A DNA stretch of 4,331 nt from a virus (Duplodnaviria; Heunggongvirae; Uroviricota; Caudoviricetes), in IMG/VR virus record IMGVR_UViG_2671180460_000008, positions 1 to 4,331 of that record, one strand, 5' to 3'. Both the position numbers and the translations under genes were made by a program. Within the stretch, counting starts at the first letter, position 1. Every line of letters begins with the position of its first letter. The notes under the pieces are model-generated. The model searched no databases, had not been told where the DNA came from, and worked only from the letters and a program-made list of their open reading frames with translations. This document shows positions 1 to 4,331 of this stretch, piece after piece.

Positions 1-84
1 GCCGCAGAGCTGGGAACTGCCATCGAATGGGGCGGGGACTGGAAAACACTGAAAGACGGACCTCACTTTCAGTTGAAACGCTGA
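1..84 (+). CDS. 3' end of an upstream gene (5'-truncated by the window); possibly the C-terminus of a peptidase M15 (VanY-like) endolysin
   Basis: Frame 1 is open from base 1 to TGA at 82-84 and translates AAELGTAIEWGGDWKTLKDGPHFQLKR. The WGGDW...DGPHFxL pattern resembles the C-terminal metal-binding region (D-x-x-H) of M15 L-Ala-D-Glu peptidase endolysins as I recall them, e.g. the T5 endolysin ending ...DGGHVELV. Position immediately upstream of cos fits a lysis-cassette gene. Only 27 residues are visible. Confidence 0.35.
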   Translation, partial: AAELGTAIEWGGDWKTLKDGPHFQLKR

Positions 85-98
85 TAACCAGGTGTGTT

Positions 99-218
99 AT
101 GAGCCGAAAACACTGGACACACAGAATGCCGCGAACGGCGGCGAAATGGGCGCTGGTAGCGATACTGGTGTCTTTTTTGTTTATCCTGATCATTCAGATA
201 AGCAGAGTATTTTGCTGA
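99..218 (+). CDS. Hypothetical 39-aa single-pass membrane peptide (basic N-terminus plus one hydrophobic helix)
   Basis: ATG at 99 lies 14 nt after the upstream stop and is preceded by AGGTG at 90-94 (short 4-nt spacer). Translation is MSRKHWTHRMPRTAAKWALVAILVSFLFILIIQISRVFC: a basic N-terminus followed by an uninterrupted hydrophobic stretch of about 20 residues. No homolog recognised; could be a truncated i-spanin N-terminus or a chance ORF. Confidence 0.25.
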   Translation: MSRKHWTHRMPRTAAKWALVAILVSFLFILIIQISRVFC

Positions 219-361
219 AAATGAAGGGTGCACCAGCGCCCGGAAAGCATGAGATTCTGCTGCGTGTGCCAATTTTATCTTATTCATTCTAAATCTTGCC
301 GAATCAAGATGAACTTTGATCAACTGCCCGGCGGCAAGGGGCATTAAAACAGGAGAAAATT

Positions 362-469
362 ATGTGGAAACCTACAGGTGACAAGTTAATCACCGCGTTG
401 ATTGACGGCAAGCCACAATACTTACGCATTGAAATGAGTGGTCAGCATGCTCGTTTGATTCGTGAGTAA
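362..469 (+). CDS. Hypothetical 35-aa protein
   Basis: ATG at 362 is preceded by a strong Shine-Dalgarno AGGAG at 351-355 with a 6-nt spacer; stop TAA at 467-469. Translation is MWKPTGDKLITALIDGKPQYLRIEMSGQHARLIRE. No homolog recognised. Confidence 0.35.
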   Translation: MWKPTGDKLITALIDGKPQYLRIEMSGQHARLIRE

Positions 470-480
470 CAGGCATTACA

Positions 481-507
481 GCAGCCCTTCACACACTGAG
501 GGGCTGC
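481..507. other. Inverted repeat able to form a hairpin (7-bp GC-rich stem, 13-nt loop)
   Basis: GCAGCCC at 481-487 is the exact reverse complement of GGGCTGC at 501-507. There is no U-tract after it on the + strand, so it is not a canonical intrinsic terminator for the 35-aa ORF. Confidence 0.3.
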
Positions 508-517
508 GATAATGTGA

Positions 518-650: not shown

Positions 651-700
651 GAAAATAAAAAACCGGCAGGGGAAATCCATTGAAGATTTGCCGGTGGCAA
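651..700 (-). terminator. Candidate Rho-independent terminator on the minus strand (repeat element copy B)
   Basis: Minus strand reads CACCGGCAAATCTTCAATGGATTTCCCCTGCCGGTTTTTTATTTTCG: an outer stem CCGGCA / TGCCGG with inner AAATC / GATTT pairing, followed by a T6AT4 tract. The + strand carries the same A-rich CCGG core as copy A (GAAAATAAAAAACCGGCAGGGG at 651-670). Confidence 0.3.
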
Positions 701-838
701 AAGATGGCCATGCTTTCAACTTTAGTCGCAGGGTTACGGAGTGCAACAACGAATGCCACAGGTATATGGCTGAATGGCGTTGCAATGATGTACGTCATCT
801 TATCTGTAAATGTTAATGATAAATGCTCTCATTTGCGC

Positions 839-851
839 GGGTCCTTTCCGG
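839..851 (+). promoter_or_regulatory. cosQ-like element (packaging termination signal)
   Basis: GGGTCCTTTCCGG at 839-851 is identical to the 13 bp I recall at the right end of lambda DNA (GGGTCCTTTCCGG, about 17 bp before the cosN nick), which contains the cosQ heptamer GGGTCCT. Confidence 0.5.
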
Positions 852-859
852 AATCTGAA

Positions 860-890
860 ACACCGGGGGTCATGGGACGCGCAAAAACGC
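860..890 (+). promoter_or_regulatory. Predicted cosN (terminase nicking site); core sequence differs from lambda
   Basis: Located by two conserved flanks: the cosQ-like block upstream (839-851) and CGCTATTTATGAAAATTTT downstream (890-908), which matches lambda bases about 23-41. Counting from either flank puts the start of a 12-nt cohesive end at about 868-869. The local sequence CACCGGGGGTCATGGGACGCGC is not the lambda GGGCGGCGACCT. Confidence 0.45.
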
Positions 891-917
891 GCTATTTATG
901 AAAATTTTTCGAGTTCC

Positions 918-929
918 ACTTCCGGTTTT
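918..929 (+). repeat. R3-like arm of a 12-bp perfect inverted repeat (ACTTCCGGTTTT)
   Basis: ACTTCCGGTTTT at 918-929 is the exact reverse complement of AAAACCGGAAGT at 973-984. Confidence 0.5.
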
Positions 930-938
930 TTAATTATC

Positions 939-951
939 TAACCAATTGATT
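939..951 (-). promoter_or_regulatory. IHF binding site candidate (I1-like)
   Basis: The reverse complement of 939-951 is AATCAATTGGTTA, a full match to the IHF consensus WATCAANNNNTTR. It lies between the two inverted repeat arms, as I1 lies between R3 and R2 in lambda. Confidence 0.45.
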
Positions 952-972
952 AGATTGTTTTTAGTTATCAAG

Positions 973-984
973 AAAACCGGAAGT
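973..984 (+). repeat. R2-like arm of the 12-bp perfect inverted repeat (AAAACCGGAAGT)
   Basis: Exact reverse complement of 918-929. A related copy, AAAAACGGAGTT, occurs at 1013-1024. Confidence 0.5.
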
Positions 985-1053
985 CCGACCAGTTTGTGGG
1001 AAAATAGCGGCAAAAACGGAGTTGAGTGTAAAGTGAACAGCTAAAGAGGGTGT

Positions 1054-1563
1054 ATGGCAACGCAGGCGGAGGTAGCCGAGCATCTTGGTATAACTGAACG
1101 CTGGTTGCGGGATCTTCAGAAGCACCCGGGAGCGCCAAAAAATCGAAAGCGTGGTGAATACGATATTGATGCCTGGCGATATTTTTATATTTCATACCTT
1201 AAACGCAAAGGAAGAAGCGATTCTGATGACGATGGAAATAGCGATTACGAAGAAAAATTACTTATCGCCAGATGGAAATTGACTGAAGAACAGGCAATAG
1301 CACAGCAATTAAAAAATCAGGTAACCGAAGGCAAGCTCATTGATTCTGGGTTCTGCGTTTTCGCTCTCAGCAAACTGGCGATGGCATTGTCCAGTACGCT
1401 TGATTCCATTCCTTTATCCATGCAGCGACAGTTCCCGGATTTAACCCCGCGTCATATCGATTATCTGAAAACCCTTATCGCAAAAGGCGCGAATCAGTGT
1501 GCGCGGACAGGGGATAAATTGCCGGAGTTACTCGATGAATATATCCGAACTACAGCTGAATAA
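1054..1563 (+). CDS. nu1: Terminase small subunit (lambda gpNu1 family)
   Basis: 169-aa ORF directly downstream of cos. The C-terminal half (GFCVFALSKLAMALSSTLDSIPLSMQRQFPDLTPRHIDYLK ... LPELLDEYI) aligns with the lambda Nu1 C-terminus as I recall it (AFCTFVLSRIAGEIASILDGLPLSVQRRFPELENRHVDFLK ... IPGLLSEYI). The N-terminus (TQAEVAEHLGITERWLRDL) looks like a helix-turn-helix but diverges from lambda. The 3' end overlaps the large-subunit start by 29 nt, as in lambda. SD AGAGGG at 1045-1050. Confidence 0.9.
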   Translation: MATQAEVAEHLGITERWLRDLQKHPGAPKNRKRGEYDIDAWRYFYISYLKRKGRSDSDDDGNSDYEEKLLIARWKLTEEQAIAQQLKNQVTEGKLIDSGFCVFALSKLAMALSSTLDSIPLSMQRQFPDLTPRHIDYLKTLIAKGANQCARTGDKLPELLDEYIRTTAE

Positions 1564-3451
1564 TATGATGGCTGCTGTTTCAGTTGCGCTGCAGCCTCTG
1601 GTCAGGGTTGTACCGATGACGGCAGTTGAATGGGCTGATCAAAATTATTATCTGCCTAAAGAATCGTCATACGGTGATGGGGAATGGAAAACACTGCCGT
1701 TCCAGGTCGCCATTATGAACAGCATGGGGCACGACAGGATCCGCACTGTTAATCTGATTAAATCGGCGCGTGTGGGTTACACCAAAATGCTGCTGGGCGT
1801 GGTCGGGTATTTTATTGAGCATAAATCCCGTAACAGCCTGCTCTTCCAGCCGACAGATTCCGCAGCTGAAGATTTTATGAAAGCGCATGTGGAAGCAACG
1901 CTCCGGGATGTCCCCAGCCTTAAAGCGTTATCGCCATGGCTGGGCAGAAAACATCGTGACAACACACTCACCCTGAAGCGTTTTTCCTCCGGCGTGGGGT
2001 TCTGGTGCCTGGGGGGTGCCGCTGCTAAAAACTACCGTGAAAAATCAGTGGATGTGGTCTGCTATGACGAACTCTCCTCGTTTGAACCGGATGTGGAAAA
2101 GGAAGGCTCGCCAACGCTGCTTGGCGATAAACGTATCGAAGGTTCGGTATGGCCTAAATCCATACGCGGCTCAACGCCAAAAATTAAAGGCTCCTGCCAG
2201 ATTGAGAAAGCGGCGAATGAATCTGCGCATTTCATGCGGTTTTATGTCCCTTGCCCTCATTGCGGGGAGGCCCAGTATCTGAAGTTTGGCGATGATGCGA
2301 CGCCGTTTGGCCTGAAATGGGAGAAGGGTAAACCGGAAACGGTGTATTACCTGTGTGAACATAATGGCTGTGTGATCCGCCAGTCGGAACTTGACCAGAC
2401 CGACGGACGCTGGATTTGTGACAATACCGGGATGTGGACGCGTGACGGCCTGACATTTTACAGTGCCGGTGATGAGGAAATCCCGCCACCGCGCTCAATT
2501 TCGTACCACATCTGGACGGCATACAGCCCGTTCACCACCTGGGTACAGATTGTTTATGACTGGCTCGATGCACTGAAGGATCCGAATGGCGTCAAGACGT
2601 TCATTAACACCACGCTCGGGGAGCCCTATGAAGAGGCTGTGGCGGAAAAACTGAGCTTTGAGTTGTTACTGGAAAAGGTCTGTCACTATGGTGCGCAGGT
2701 TCCCCTGCGGGTGGTTTACCTGACCGCCGGGATCGACTCCCAGAAAGATCGCTATGAAATTTATGTCTGGGGCTGGGCTCCCGGCGAAGAAGCCTTTCTG
2801 ATTGACAAGCAAATTATCATGGGGCGACCGGAGGACGAGGACACCCTTAAACGTGTTGATGCGGTGATCCGGAAAAAATACCGCCATGCTGACGGTACTG
2901 AAATTTCCATTTCCCGCGTCTGCTGGGATACCGGTGGTATCGACCAGGACATTGTGTATCAGCGATCCAGAAAACACGGCACTTTTTTTGTGCTTCCCAT
3001 AAAAGGGGCATCGGTGTATGGCAAGCCGGTGATCACCATGCCCAAAAAGCGCAACCAGCGTGGTGTGTTTTTGTGTGAGGTGGGCTCCGATACCGTCAAG
3101 GAAATGCTGTACGCCCGTTTTGCCCTGCCGGTGGTTTCTGCCAGTGAAGCAGCCCCGTATACCTTCCGTTTTCCGGATAACCCGGACATTTTTTCGGAAG
3201 AAGAGGCGCGTCAAATCGTAGCGGAAGAACTGGTGGAAAAGGTGGTTAACGGCAGGGTGAAACTGCTGTGGGATAAAAAAGGGCGACGCAACGAAGCCCT
3301 CGACTGCCTGGTATATGCTTATGCCGCCCTGCGCGTTTCGGTACAGCGGTGGCAACTGGACCTTGACGCGCTGGCGAGGTCACGAAGAGATGAGCAGGAT
3401 GAGGATGATATGAGCATGGAAGAGATCGCGGCTGCACTGAGTGGAGGATAA
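1535..3451 (+). CDS. A: Terminase large subunit (lambda gpA family; ATPase plus endonuclease)
   Basis: Near-collinear similarity to lambda gpA along the whole length, from MNIS... at the N-terminus to ...ALSG at the C-terminus. Conserved at lambda-equivalent positions: Y46 (1670-1672), Walker A-like KSARVGYT at residues 76-83 (1760-1783), Walker B D178/E179 in VDVVCYDEL (2066-2071), and the Cys cluster CPHCG ... CEHNGC (2252-2263 and 2354-2371). Start set to ATG 1535 (GGAG at 1524-1527, 7-nt spacer), which reproduces the lambda N-terminus; the ORF track instead extends to an in-frame GTG at 1499. Confidence 0.95.
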   Translation: MNISELQLNNMMAAVSVALQPLVRVVPMTAVEWADQNYYLPKESSYGDGEWKTLPFQVAIMNSMGHDRIRTVNLIKSARVGYTKMLLGVVGYFIEHKSRNSLLFQPTDSAAEDFMKAHVEATLRDVPSLKALSPWLGRKHRDNTLTLKRFSSGVGFWCLGGAAAKNYREKSVDVVCYDELSSFEPDVEKEGSPTLLGDKRIEGSVWPKSIRGSTPKIKGSCQIEKAANESAHFMRFYVPCPHCGEAQYLKFGDDATPFGLKWEKGKPETVYYLCEHNGCVIRQSELDQTDGRWICDNTGMWTRDGLTFYSAGDEEIPPPRSISYHIWTAYSPFTTWVQIVYDWLDALKDPNGVKTFINTTLGEPYEEAVAEKLSFELLLEKVCHYGAQVPLRVVYLTAGIDSQKDRYEIYVWGWAPGEEAFLIDKQIIMGRPEDEDTLKRVDAVIRKKYRHADGTEISISRVCWDTGGIDQDIVYQRSRKHGTFFVLPIKGASVYGKPVITMPKKRNQRGVFLCEVGSDTVKEMLYARFALPVVSASEAAPYTFRFPDNPDIFSEEEARQIVAEELVEKVVNGRVKLLWDKKGRRNEALDCLVYAYAALRVSVQRWQLDLDALARSRRDEQDEDDMSMEEIAAALSGG

Positions 3452-3454
3452 AGG

Positions 3455-3664
3455 ATGGTTTATACGCATGAAATGCTTTGTGAGGCGCGTCGGGCATTAC
3501 ATGAACTGATGATCGGGCGTGCTGTGGTTTCTGTCGGCAGGAACGGACGGCAGGTTCAGTATTCGCGTGCGACGATTGGTGAACTGCGGCAATACATTGA
3601 AGAGCTGGAGAGTGCGCTGGGCGTGTCCGGACGGCGTCGCGGTCCGGTGGGAGTGAGACTGTGA
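3455..3664 (+). CDS. W: Head completion / head-tail joining protein (lambda gpW family)
   Basis: 69-aa ORF starting 3 nt after the gpA stop, with SD GGAGG at 3443-3447. It aligns with lambda gpW (68 aa) as I recall it: shared A-R-x-ALH-x-LM-x-G, YI-x-ELE and RRRGP-x-G motifs. Gene order Nu1-A-W-B matches lambda. Confidence 0.9.
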   Translation: MVYTHEMLCEARRALHELMIGRAVVSVGRNGRQVQYSRATIGELRQYIEELESALGVSGRRRGPVGVRL

Positions 3665-4331
3665 ATGTGGAGTTGATAGATGTTCACGGACAGCCCCTGC
3701 GACAGAGTATGGGATATTCCGGTGGCGGCTCCGGATTTGGTGGGCAGCTTGCGGAATGGTTACCTGCGCCGGAAAGTGCCGATGTGGCGCTGCTGCCTTC
3801 CATTCAGTTGGGTAATGCCCGTGCGGATGATCTGGTCCGTAATAATGGCATTGCCGCGAATGCTGTGGAAATTCATAAAGACCATATCGTCGGGCATATG
3901 TTTCGTCTGAGTTATCGCCCCAACTGGCGCTGGCTGGGGATGTCGGAAGCAGATTCACATGCTTTTATTGAAGATGTTGAGGCGGCGTGGATGGAATACT
4001 GCGATCCGGTGTTTGGTACGATGGATGTGGAAGGGCGTCGTTCGTTTACCGAATTCATTCGTGAAGGGGTGGGTGTCCATACTTTTAATGGAGAAATTTT
4101 TGTCCAGCCTGTATGGGATGCGGAATCCACGTCATTATTCCGGACGAAATTCAAAACCATCAGCCCGAAGCGTGTCAGTACACCCGGTTATGGTACCGGC
4201 GATCGTTTTATGCGTGCCGGGGTGGAAATAAACCGACACGGAAAAGCGCTGGCCTACCATGTTCAGGATGATGACTGGCCCGGCTACGGTGTCAGTAAAT
4301 GGACACGAATTACGGCAACACTGCCTTCCGG
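3661..4331 (+). CDS. B: Portal protein (lambda gpB family), 5' portion; 3' end beyond the window
   Basis: Frame 1 is open from 3601 to the window end. Translation contains YSGGGSGFGGQL, LLPSIQLGNARADDLVRNNGIAANA, HKDHIVG, FRLSYRPNWRWLG, VEAAW, IREGV, FNGEIFVQ, LFRTKFKTISPKRVS, matching the lambda gpB N-terminal region as I recall it. Proposed start is GTG 3661 (GGGAG at 3649-3653, 7-nt spacer; overlaps the gpW stop as GTGA); the first ATG at 3709 has no SD. Confidence 0.85.
   Translation, partial: MNVELIDVHGQPLRQSMGYSGGGSGFGGQLAEWLPAPESADVALLPSIQLGNARADDLVRNNGIAANAVEIHKDHIVGHMFRLSYRPNWRWLGMSEADSHAFIEDVEAAWMEYCDPVFGTMDVEGRRSFTEFIREGVGVHTFNGEIFVQPVWDAESTSLFRTKFKTISPKRVSTPGYGTGDRFMRAGVEINRHGKALAYHVQDDDWPGYGVSKWTRITATLPS

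What the first reader, a model, noticed from the sequence alone, without database searches (positions are those of the whole stretch)
839..908. Lambda-like cos site with conserved flanks but a divergent cosN core
The cosQ-like block GGGTCCTTTCCGG and the downstream block CGCTATTTATGAAAATTTT are essentially identical to lambda as I recall it, and they are almost the same distance apart as in lambda (40 bp here against 41 bp in lambda). The intervening cosN core (about 860-889, ...CACCGGGGGTCATGGGACGCGCAAAAACGCG) does not contain the lambda cohesive end GGGCGGCGACCT. Lambda, 21 and phi80 are generally described as sharing the same cohesive end, so a lambda-type terminase that cuts a different core would be informative about cosN recognition by gpA. 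The predicted overhang location (about 868-881) is inference only.
Basis: partly seen in the sequence, partly recalled or inferred. Interest (0 to 1): 0.55.

Follow-up and report, generated by a model that had tools for sequence, protein, structure and literature searches.

The report
Lambda-type cos site, variable sticky end
This is the DNA-packaging (cos) site of a lambda-like E. coli prophage, belonging to a widespread but apparently undescribed class in which the 12-base sticky end differs from lambda's and varies freely in its middle, even between phages with identical cutting enzymes.

Summary
Window 839-851 and 890-908 match lambda exactly (13/13 and 19/19). The spacer is 38 bp against lambda's 39, not 40/41. 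GGGCGGCGACCT is absent. Nu1-, gpA-, gpW- and portal-like genes follow.

The core is not unique. About 40 distinct contexts share GGGTCCT-N22-GG[T/G/A]C-NNNNN-ACG-CGCAAAAA. They come from IMG/VR contigs, two deposited phage records, 82 of 5426 complete E. coli genomes, E. whittamii and Enterobacter mori.

Bridging forms with identical flanks carry a canonical left half (GGGCGGCAGACG, 9/12 contiguous with Gifsy-1). A related cos aligns base for base with Aeromonas phage records that start at GGGCGTTAGACC. The distance to the lambda-identical block is unchanged at 10 bp. Together these place the predicted 12-nt 5' overhang at 868-879 (GGTCATGGGACG).

Lambda-type overhangs are invariant across 16 contexts. 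In this class positions 3 and 5-9 are hypervariable (13 overhangs in 33 contexts) while the flanks stay conserved. Large-subunit sequences can be 100% identical between GGTC, GGGC and GGAC sites, and no residue separates the classes.

So the interior of the overhang is probably not read by the enzyme here. No end mapping exists. I rate it a new variant of a known kind, of moderate interest.

The parts
839..845 (+). cosQ (GGGTCCT), the packaging-termination subsite. The identical block extends to 851.
   Evidence: Exact match to lambda 48473-48485. It starts 29 bp before the predicted top-strand nick, against 30 in lambda and 29 in cdtI-type sites.
857..867 (+). Conserved left flank of the nicking site, GAAACACCG[R]G
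   Evidence: Nearly invariant across 33-42 unique contexts of this class, whereas lambda-type left flanks vary.
868..879 (+). Predicted cohesive end (12-nt 5' overhang GGTCATGGGACG). Predicted nicks fall between 867|868 on the top strand and 879|880 on the bottom strand.
   Evidence: Positional homology with bridging forms that have identical flanks (L059/L104 GGGCGGCAGACG, L070 GGGCTGGGGACG, L068 GGACGGCAGACG), with Gifsy-1 and lambda, and with Aeromonas phage record ends via the 705R4 cos. The 10-bp distance to the lambda-identical block is unchanged. This is inference, not end mapping.
880..889 (+). Conserved right flank CGCAAAAACG. It has an A-tract where lambda has CGCGGGTTTT.
   Evidence: CGCAAAAA is invariant in the class.
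890..908 (+). Block identical to lambda bp 23-41. From memory, this is the interval between cosN and R3 that holds I2/R4.
   Evidence: 19/19 identity to lambda. It is shared by loci with different small-subunit and cosB types.
918..929 (+). R3-like repeat ACTTCCGGTTTT, the presumed small-subunit binding site of cosB
   Evidence: It has an exact inverted copy at 973-984. Its offset from the nicking site matches lambda R3.
939..951 (-). IHF consensus WATCAANNNNTTR (I1-like), inside the palindrome 936-955 and between the two repeats
   Evidence: It is the only match in the window. 30 of 200 shuffles give at least one match, so it is weak on its own and its position carries the argument.
973..984 (-). 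R2-like repeat, an inverted copy of R3. A degenerate third copy lies at 1012-1023 on the minus strand.
1054..1563 (+). Small terminase subunit (Nu1 family)
   Evidence: Pfam Phage_Nu1, E = 6e-20. It is 42% identical to lambda Nu1 over the C-terminal part and 75% to PhiR12_1 Nu1.
1535..3451 (+). Large terminase subunit (gpA family), with ATPase and endonuclease domains
   Evidence: Pfam GpA_ATPase and GpA_nuclease. It is 64.5% identical to lambda gpA and 81% to PhiR12_1. Residues that are invariant across five homologues are present.
3455..3664 (+). gpW-like head-tail joining protein
   Evidence: Pfam gpW, E = 5e-24.
3661..4331 (+). Lambda-family portal protein, running off the window
   Evidence: Pfam Phage_portal_2, E = 5e-41. 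It is 57% identical to lambda gpB.

Best explanation
Window 839-1023 is the cos site of a lambda-like prophage, laid out as in lambda: cosQ, nicking site (cosN), a lambda-identical block, then cosB (R3, IHF site, inverted R2), followed by the terminase genes.

Inferred mechanism. The Nu1-like small subunit binds the R repeats across an IHF-induced bend. This positions the gpA-like large subunit to nick the top strand between 867 and 868 and the bottom strand between 879 and 880. The result is a 12-nt 5' overhang, GGTCATGGGACG.

The site belongs to a class of nicking sites, GG[T/G/A]C-NNNNN-ACG flanked by AAACACCGRG and CGCAAAAA. In this class the interior of the overhang (positions 3 and 5-9) is not constrained and drifts freely. 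The outer bases and the flanks are conserved.

Shown: the anatomy, the homology, the population pattern and the lack of any link to the large-subunit sequence. Inferred: the nick positions, that the site is cut, and that recognition rests on the flanks and on cosB anchoring rather than on the overhang interior.
For: 1. Identity of the site. The flanks match lambda exactly and the pattern is not expected by chance. Nu1, gpA, gpW and portal family genes lie immediately downstream. An inverted repeat at 918-941/961-984 surrounds an IHF consensus at 939-951.

2. It is a class. 36 IMG/VR contigs carry the core. So do the deposited phage records SerU-LTIIb and vB_EcoM-705R4, 82 of 5426 complete E. 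coli genomes, and E. whittamii and Enterobacter mori.

3. Nick register.
- Loci with the same flanks carry GGGCGGCAGACG, which shares its first 9 bases with Gifsy-1 GGGCGGCAGCGT, or GGGCTGGGGACG, or GGACGGCAGACG.
- L103 joins a CCGAG left flank directly to the lambda overhang.
- My extraction reproduces the published Gifsy-1 differences at positions 8, 9 and 11 (PMC4669245).
- The 705R4 cos aligns base for base with Aeromonas phages phiARM81ld and PhAER-5. Their linear records start at GGGCGTTAGACC|CGC, and PhAER-5 repeats those 12 bases at its other end.
- The distance from the overhang to the lambda-identical block is 10 bp in every class. This spacing is critical in lambda (PMC9026076).

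4. Relaxed interior. Nucleotide diversity at positions 3 and 5-9 is 0.48, against 0.06-0.12 in the flanks, with 13 overhangs in 33 contexts. Lambda-type overhangs are invariant in 16 contexts. The closest relative of the window differs by 2 bases in 101, and both lie in the overhang centre.

5. The enzyme is not class-specific.
- Large-subunit sequences are 100% identical between GGTC and GGGC/GGAC loci (L069 = L070, L071 = L068), and no alignment column separates the classes.
- The same class also occurs with a large subunit only 44% identical to the window's.
- The same cosB types occur with all three nicking-site classes.
- This fits the published view that the endonuclease has low sequence specificity and is positioned by the small subunit bound to cosB (PMC9026076).
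Against: - No virion end has been mapped for any member of this class. No deposited linear phage record starts or ends in it, and none of the overhang strings appears in the searchable literature.
- In the preferred register the left flank is GG or AG, not the CG reported as highly conserved next to the nick (PMC4669245). A register shifted 2 bp to the left would restore CG on both sides.
- Two-fold symmetry favours the preferred centre only weakly: 5 of 9 pairs, a score that neighbouring centres and several off-centre positions in lambda also reach.
- Many members are prophages of unknown viability, and the window shows only 4.3 kb of this one.
- The start of the phiARM81ld record may have been set by analogy rather than by experiment. 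I could not read that paper.
- I could not read the main survey of natural variation at this site (Vahanian et al. 2017).
Confidence: 0.7

Rival explanations
1. Same cos site, with both nicks 2 bp further left. The cut would be CG|GGGGTCATGGGA|CG (overhang 866-877), keeping the canonical CG dinucleotide on each side.
For: CG flanks are reported as highly conserved next to both nicks (PMC4669245). In this register the variable positions become 1, 5 and 7-11, which resembles the published rule that the right half varies.
Against: - The bridging forms would then read GGGGGCGGCAGA instead of GGGCGGCAGACG, losing their 9-base identity with Gifsy-1.
- The distance to the lambda-identical block and R3 would become 12 rather than 10 bp, and the distance from cosQ 27 rather than 29-30.
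- The alignment of 705R4 to the Aeromonas record starts argues against it.
- The hybrid L103 places the lambda overhang directly after CCGAG.
- Symmetry about that centre is only 2 of 9 pairs.
Confidence: 0.1
2. Same cos site, but with a different stagger. Either a 14-nt overhang (866-879, with CG flanks on both sides) or a 10-nt overhang bounded by the GTC....GAC dyad (869-878).
For: - The 14-nt version keeps a CG before the nick on each strand.
- The GTC-N4-GAC dyad is the most symmetric conserved feature.
- More distant lambda-like phages are reported to have overhangs of 7-19 nt (Vahanian et al. 2017, as cited in PMC9303873).
Against: Large subunits identical to those of this class sit next to sites with a canonical left half and identical flanks. 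A different stagger for the same enzyme and the same spacing is unlikely. All characterised enteric relatives give 12 nt (PMC4669245).
Confidence: 0.07
3. A decayed cos in a defective prophage. On this view the core diverged because it is no longer cut.
For: Only 4.3 kb is visible. Many E. coli lambdoid prophages are defective. The closest complete-genome relative has a foreign integrase-bearing element inserted after its head genes.
Against: - Divergence is confined to six positions of the overhang, while 11 bp of the left flank, the outer overhang bases and the right flank are nearly invariant across dozens of otherwise different contexts.
- The class occurs with at least six cosB types and with two large-subunit lineages only 44% identical to each other.
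- The terminase, gpW and portal reading frames are intact, and conserved catalytic-region residues are present.
- Decay would not spare the flanks in this way.
Confidence: 0.08

Closest known systems
Bacteriophage lambda cos (cosQ, cosN, cosB)
   Same: - The 7-bp cosQ and six further bases are identical, as is the 19-bp block at lambda bp 23-41.
- The 10-bp distance from the overhang to that block is the same.
- Both have a repeat, an IHF site and an inverted repeat in cosB, followed by Nu1, A, W and B genes in the same order.
   Different: - The overhang is GGTCATGGGACG against GGGCGGCGACCT, 5 of 12 identical. It has T at position 3 and AT at positions 5-6.
- The left flank is GG rather than CG.
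- The right flank has an A-tract rather than a T-tract.
- cosQ is 1 bp closer to the nick.
- The cosB repeats are ACTTCCGGTTTT rather than lambda's R sequence.
- The large subunit is 64.5% identical to gpA. The small subunit is 42% identical to Nu1, over the C-terminal part only.
Known natural cohesive-end variants of lambda-like phages: N15 and phiD326 (positions 9, 12), Gifsy-1 (8, 9, 11), mEp213/LLS (GGGCGGCGCGCT), cdtI-type (GGGCGGGAGCGT)
   Same: All are 12-base lambda-type sites with cosQ conserved and variation tolerated inside the overhang (PMC4669245, PMC12315714).
   Different: The known variants keep GGGCGG and vary only in the right half. This class changes position 3, varies at positions 5-9 and keeps ACG at positions 10-12. 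Its left flank lacks the C at -2.
Aeromonas phages phiARM81ld and PhAER-1, -2 and -5
   Same: Their cosB and the 5' end of their small-subunit gene are homologous to those of the 705R4-type members of this class. The overhang region aligns base for base with 9 of 12 identical.
   Different: They have a canonical left half and a CG flank (GCG|GGGCGTTAGACC|CGC). Their large subunit is 53% identical to that of 705R4 and 40% to lambda gpA.
Escherichia phage SerU-LTIIb (KU052038) and vB_EcoM-705R4 (ON470624)
   Same: They carry the same class of nicking site (GGTCTGGGGACG and GGTCGGTAGACG) with the same flanks.
   Different: In neither record is the cos site annotated as such. In SerU-LTIIb a 'NU1-like protein' CDS is drawn over it. 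Their cosB and small-subunit types differ from the window's.

Membership tests
[quoted passage not shown] | 7-bp cosQ GGGTCCT about 30 bp upstream of the top-strand nick | tested here: met
   Exact match at 839-845, starting 29 bp before the predicted nick.
[quoted passage not shown] | Virion DNA ends carry a 12-base 5' extension generated at this site | not testable with these tools
   This needs end mapping of virion DNA. No record or paper found here maps ends for this class.
[quoted passage not shown] | Left half of the overhang conserved (GGGCGG; the first 4 bases GGGC are reported as conserved) | tested here: not met
   The left half is GGTCAT, with 3 of 6 identical and T at position 3. 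Across the class, position 3 is T, G or A and positions 5-6 vary.
[quoted passage not shown] | CG dinucleotide flanking each nick | tested here: inconclusive
   The right flank CG is present (880-881). The left flank is GG in the preferred register, and CG only if the top-strand nick lies 2 bp further left.
[quoted passage not shown] | cosB with small-subunit binding repeats in opposite orientation around an IHF site, at a fixed distance from the nicking site | tested here: met
   The repeats lie at 918-929 and 973-984 (inverted), with an IHF consensus at 939-951. The spacing to the overhang matches lambda. Binding itself was not tested.
[quoted passage not shown] | Adjacent Nu1-family and gpA-family terminase genes | tested here: met
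   Pfam Phage_Nu1, GpA_ATPase and GpA_nuclease all score above their curated cut-offs.

The most novel reading that the evidence does not exclude
This class may represent a different way of defining the cut site. Recognition would have shifted from the overhang to the conserved flanks (AAACACCGRG and CGCAAAAA), together with anchoring at cosB. That would free the sticky end to diversify. The resulting diversity (13 or more alleles among near-identical flanks) would then be selected rather than neutral. For example, it could act as a compatibility barcode that stops the ends of co-resident lambdoid phages or cos-bearing satellites from joining to one another.
Probability: 0.15. Interest if true: 0.6.

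Novelty: new variant of a known kind. Interest (0 to 1): 0.4.

Why it matters
How the lambda large terminase subunit finds and cuts its site has been worked out largely from lambda mutants and a few natural variants. Those led to the rule that the left half of the sticky end and the CG flanks are under selection while the right half is free.

This class breaks that rule in nature. Position 3 and positions 5-6 vary, the C at -2 is missing, and the same enzyme sequence is found next to canonical and non-canonical sites. That is a ready-made natural experiment on which bases the nuclease actually reads and what fixes the nick position.

There is also a practical point. Annotation pipelines and end-prediction by similarity to GGGCGGCGACCT will miss or misplace the ends of these prophages. 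They occur in about 1.5% of complete E. coli genomes, including toxin-carrying phages such as the LT-IIb prophage.

Tried and rejected
- **Alternative nick registers.** I considered a 2-bp left shift, a 14-nt stagger and a 10-nt stagger. I kept them as minor rivals because of the bridging forms, the Aeromonas record ends and the conserved spacing.
- **Two-fold symmetry as a locator.** The preferred centre scores 5 of 9 pairs. The neighbouring centre and several off-centre positions in lambda score the same, so I treat symmetry as weak evidence only.
- **Large-subunit residues that track the class.** There are none, and identical proteins span the classes.
- **Positions equivalent to the lambda gpA suppressors of nicking-site mutations.** From memory of Arens et al. 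1999, these are R504, N509 and E515. The window has K, R and E, but so does PhiR12_1, which has a canonical site. 705R4 has R, N and L. The paper could not be retrieved, so this remains a lead only.
- **Deposited phage genomes whose ends fall in this class.** None were found.
- **Literature searches.** I searched for the overhang strings, for 705R4 and SerU-LTIIb, and for how the phiARM81ld ends were determined. Nothing usable turned up.
- **Vahanian et al. 2017, the survey of this site's natural variation.** It is not held. Citing papers report only that GGGC and the CG flanks are conserved.
- **Rfam scan of the window.** No match.
- **Contig ends as a proxy for virion ends.** One contig ends inside cosQ and none ends at the nicks.
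- **Resemblance of the left flank to the cosB repeat.** On the opposite strand the left flank matches the repeat at 9 of 12 positions. Matches of that quality are expected by chance, so I did not pursue it.

Full report
**1. The observation**

The window reads GGGTCCTTTCCGG at 839-851 and CGCTATTTATGAAAATTTT at 890-908. I fetched both ends of lambda NC_001416. Both blocks are exact matches: the last 30 bases of lambda begin GGGTCCTTTCCGG, and lambda bases 23-41 are CGCTATTTATGAAAATTTT. The combined pattern occurs once in the window and in none of 200 shuffles. The stretch between the blocks is 38 bp here and 39 bp in lambda. GGGCGGCGACCT is absent.

**2. Context**

Downstream lie four genes:
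- a Nu1-family small terminase subunit (1054-1563);
- a gpA-family large subunit with ATPase and endonuclease domains (1535-3451);
- a gpW homologue (3455-3664);
- a lambda-family portal that runs off the window (from 3661).

Identities to lambda are 64.5% for the large subunit, 42% for the small subunit (C-terminal part only), 44% for gpW and 57% for the portal.

Between the lambda-identical block and the small-subunit gene there is an inverted repeat with arms at 918-941 and 961-984. Its core, ACTTCCGGTTTT, lies at 918-929, with an exact inverted copy at 973-984. The repeat surrounds a palindrome at 936-955 that holds the only IHF consensus in the window, at 939-951 on the minus strand. This is lambda's R3, I1, R2 layout at the same offset from the nicking site.

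The closest complete genome is E. coli PapRG-04-4, at 96.7% identity. There the region sits in a lambda-like prophage between the lysis genes and lambda-type head genes.

**3. The core is a class, not a one-off**

- A scan of IMG/VR for CACCGNGGGTCNNNNGACGCGC returned 38 contigs. Of these, 36 are cos sites with cosQ at the same distance.
- Two deposited phage records carry the core: SerU-LTIIb and vB_EcoM-705R4.
- A 101-base query found it in 82 of 5426 complete E. coli genomes.
- A scan of one genome per species added E. whittamii and Enterobacter mori.
- The consensus is GGGTCCT-N22-GG[T/G/A]C-NNNNN-ACG-CGCAAAAA. The 11 bases before the 12-mer (GAAACACCG[R]G) are nearly invariant.

**4. Where the nicks are**

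I collected the 80 closest relatives of the window's large subunit from IMG/VR, with their flanks, and read their cos sites. Anchored on the lambda-identical block, every site has a 12-mer followed by CGC and then 7 further bases before the block. The sites fall into three classes:
- lambda-type, GGGCGGCGACCT;
- a cdtI/Gifsy-like type, GGGCGGCAGCGG and relatives;
- the window's type.

The anchoring reproduces the published Gifsy-1 differences from lambda at positions 8, 9 and 11 (PMC4669245).

Within the window's class, some loci have identical flanks but carry GGGCGGCAGACG (L059, L104). That sequence shares its first 9 bases with Gifsy-1. Others carry GGGCTGGGGACG (L070, and E. coli C012) or GGACGGCAGACG (L063, L068). 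L103 joins a CCGAG left flank directly to the full lambda overhang and lambda-type right flank.

There is independent support. The cos of vB_EcoM-705R4 aligns base for base with Aeromonas phages phiARM81ld and PhAER-5. Their linear records begin GGGCGTTAGACC|CGCATGAAATCACTCGTTTT, against 705R4's GGTCGGTAGACG|CGCAAAAACTCGCTCGTTTT. PhAER-5 repeats the 12 bases at its other end, as expected when a 5' overhang is filled in.

I therefore place the window's overhang at 868-879 (GGTCATGGGACG), with nicks at 867|868 on the top strand and 879|880 on the bottom strand. This keeps the 10-bp distance to the conserved block. In lambda, the distance from the nicking site to cosB is critical (PMC9026076). 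cosQ is 29 bp from the top-strand nick, as in cdtI-type sites, against 30 in lambda.

Three alternatives remain possible. A register 2 bp to the left would restore CG on both sides, and a 14-nt or 10-nt stagger cannot be excluded. All three fit the bridging forms worse. Two-fold symmetry supports the preferred centre only weakly.

**5. What is unusual**

[quoted passage not shown] A paper citing the 2017 survey says the first four bases and the two bases on each side are conserved (PMC9303873).

In my sample:
- The lambda-type overhang is invariant in 16 sequence contexts, while its left flank varies.
- The cdtI/Gifsy type varies at positions 7 and 10-12.
- The window's class does the opposite. 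Diversity at positions 3 and 5-9 is 0.48, against 0.12 and 0.06 in the flanks. There are 13 different overhangs in 33 contexts. G1, G2, C4 (A in one locus) and A10-C11-G12 are fixed.
- The window and its closest relative differ at 2 of 101 bases around cos, and both differences lie in the overhang centre.

**6. The enzyme does not track the class**

From the conserved YYLP motif to the C-terminus, large subunits are 100% identical between GGTC and GGGC or GGAC loci (L069 and L070; L071 and L068). cdtI-type loci reach 97% identity to loci of the window's class. No alignment column separates the classes.

The class also occurs next to a large subunit only 44% identical to the window's (705R4), whose Aeromonas relatives have a canonical left half.

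The same cosB types occur with all three classes. Examples are CCATGTCCGGTTT, GATCCGTTCTTCTT and GAGGGGGTGGTTG. The nicking-site class, the cosB and small-subunit type, and the large-subunit lineage therefore reassort freely.

This fits the published view that the endonuclease has low sequence specificity and is positioned by the small subunit bound to cosB (PMC9026076).

**7. Interpretation**

The site is most likely a working lambda-type cos whose overhang interior is not read. Nick position would be set by anchoring at cosB, by the outer overhang bases and by the conserved flanks.

Why lambda-type overhangs stay invariant while this class drifts is not explained by the large-subunit sequence. 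One possibility is that the extended conserved flanks of this class supply binding energy that the left half of the overhang supplies in lambda. Another is that the diversity is selected. Neither was tested.

**8. Limits**

- No end has been mapped for any member of the class. None of the overhang strings appears in the searchable literature, and no deposited phage record ends in such a site.
- I could not read Vahanian et al. 2017, the survey of natural variation at this site, so prior description cannot be excluded.
- I could not confirm how the phiARM81ld ends were determined.
- The comparison with the lambda gpA suppressor positions rests on memory of a paper I could not retrieve.

**Verdict**

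It is a lambda-type cos with a non-canonical nicking core. Cohesive-end variation itself is already known. The terminase shows no sign of changed specificity. The noteworthy features are the break with left-half and flank conservation and the hypervariable centre, in a class found in about 1.5% of complete E. coli genomes.

Noticed in passing
window 825-925 compared with L134 (E. coli PapRG-04-4): The closest relative of the window differs at only 2 of 101 bases around cos. Both differences fall in the centre of the predicted overhang (GGTCATGGGACG against GGTCGTAGGACG). This suggests a local mutation hot spot or selection for change.
   Followed up: partly
loci L056-L132 (IMG/VR relatives of the large subunit): Each of at least three cosB and small-subunit types occurs with lambda-type, cdtI/Gifsy-type and window-type nicking sites. 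The left flank from cosQ to the nick travels separately from the right side. cos therefore looks like a recombination junction between the lysis-side and terminase-side modules.
   Followed up: partly
L002/L005 (phage cdtI, AB285204) against L081-L102: Phage cdtI has the same cosQ-to-nick left flank as loci whose large subunit is about 94% identical to the window's. Yet cdtI's own large subunit is only 24% identical to the window's. One left flank thus serves very different terminases.
   Followed up: no
L078 (IMGVR_UViG_2778261068_000003): Its overhang, GGTACGTGTACG, changes position 4 (C to A) and position 9 (G to T) together. That preserves the dyad seen as GTC....GAC elsewhere. It is a single case of a possibly compensatory symmetric change.
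   Followed up: no
window 654-789: A non-coding block just upstream of cos is 88-89% identical to the equivalent position in phages cdtI and phi458. It contains a hairpin, CCGGCAGGGGAAATCCATTGAAGATTTGCCGG, at about 661-692. There is no Rfam match and its function is unknown.
   Followed up: partly
window 1-514: The 3' end of an endolysin gene (frame 1, ending near base 84) and small downstream ORFs are about 93% identical to the lysis region of Stx2e phage phiP27. They are also about 93% identical to Actinobacillus phage vB_Apl-pPE4, an unexpected host genus for near-identical DNA.
   Followed up: no
L001 2977-3195 (SerU-LTIIb, KU052038): The deposited record annotates a 'NU1-like protein' CDS directly over the cos site, upstream of the real small-subunit gene. 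This is probably a mis-annotation. The LT-IIb toxin genes sit immediately upstream of this cos.
   Followed up: no
window 859-870, minus strand: Read on the opposite strand, the conserved left flank of the nicking site (ACCCCCGGTGTT) matches the cosB repeat ACTTCCGGTTTT at 9 of 12 positions. Matches of this quality are expected by chance (about 4 per window).
   Followed up: partly
window large subunit, residues aligned to lambda gpA 504, 509 and 515: The window has K, R and E, and 705R4 has R, N and L, at positions where, from memory, lambda suppressors of nicking-site mutations map (R504C, N509K, E515G). PhiR12_1, which has a canonical site, also has K, R and E. This is therefore a clade trait, not a marker of the class.
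   Followed up: partly
L054 (right end of PhAER-5, PQ495742): The record ends with the 12-base left-end sequence GGGCGTTAGACC plus two extra T. This looks like a filled-in cohesive end left in the assembly.
   Followed up: no
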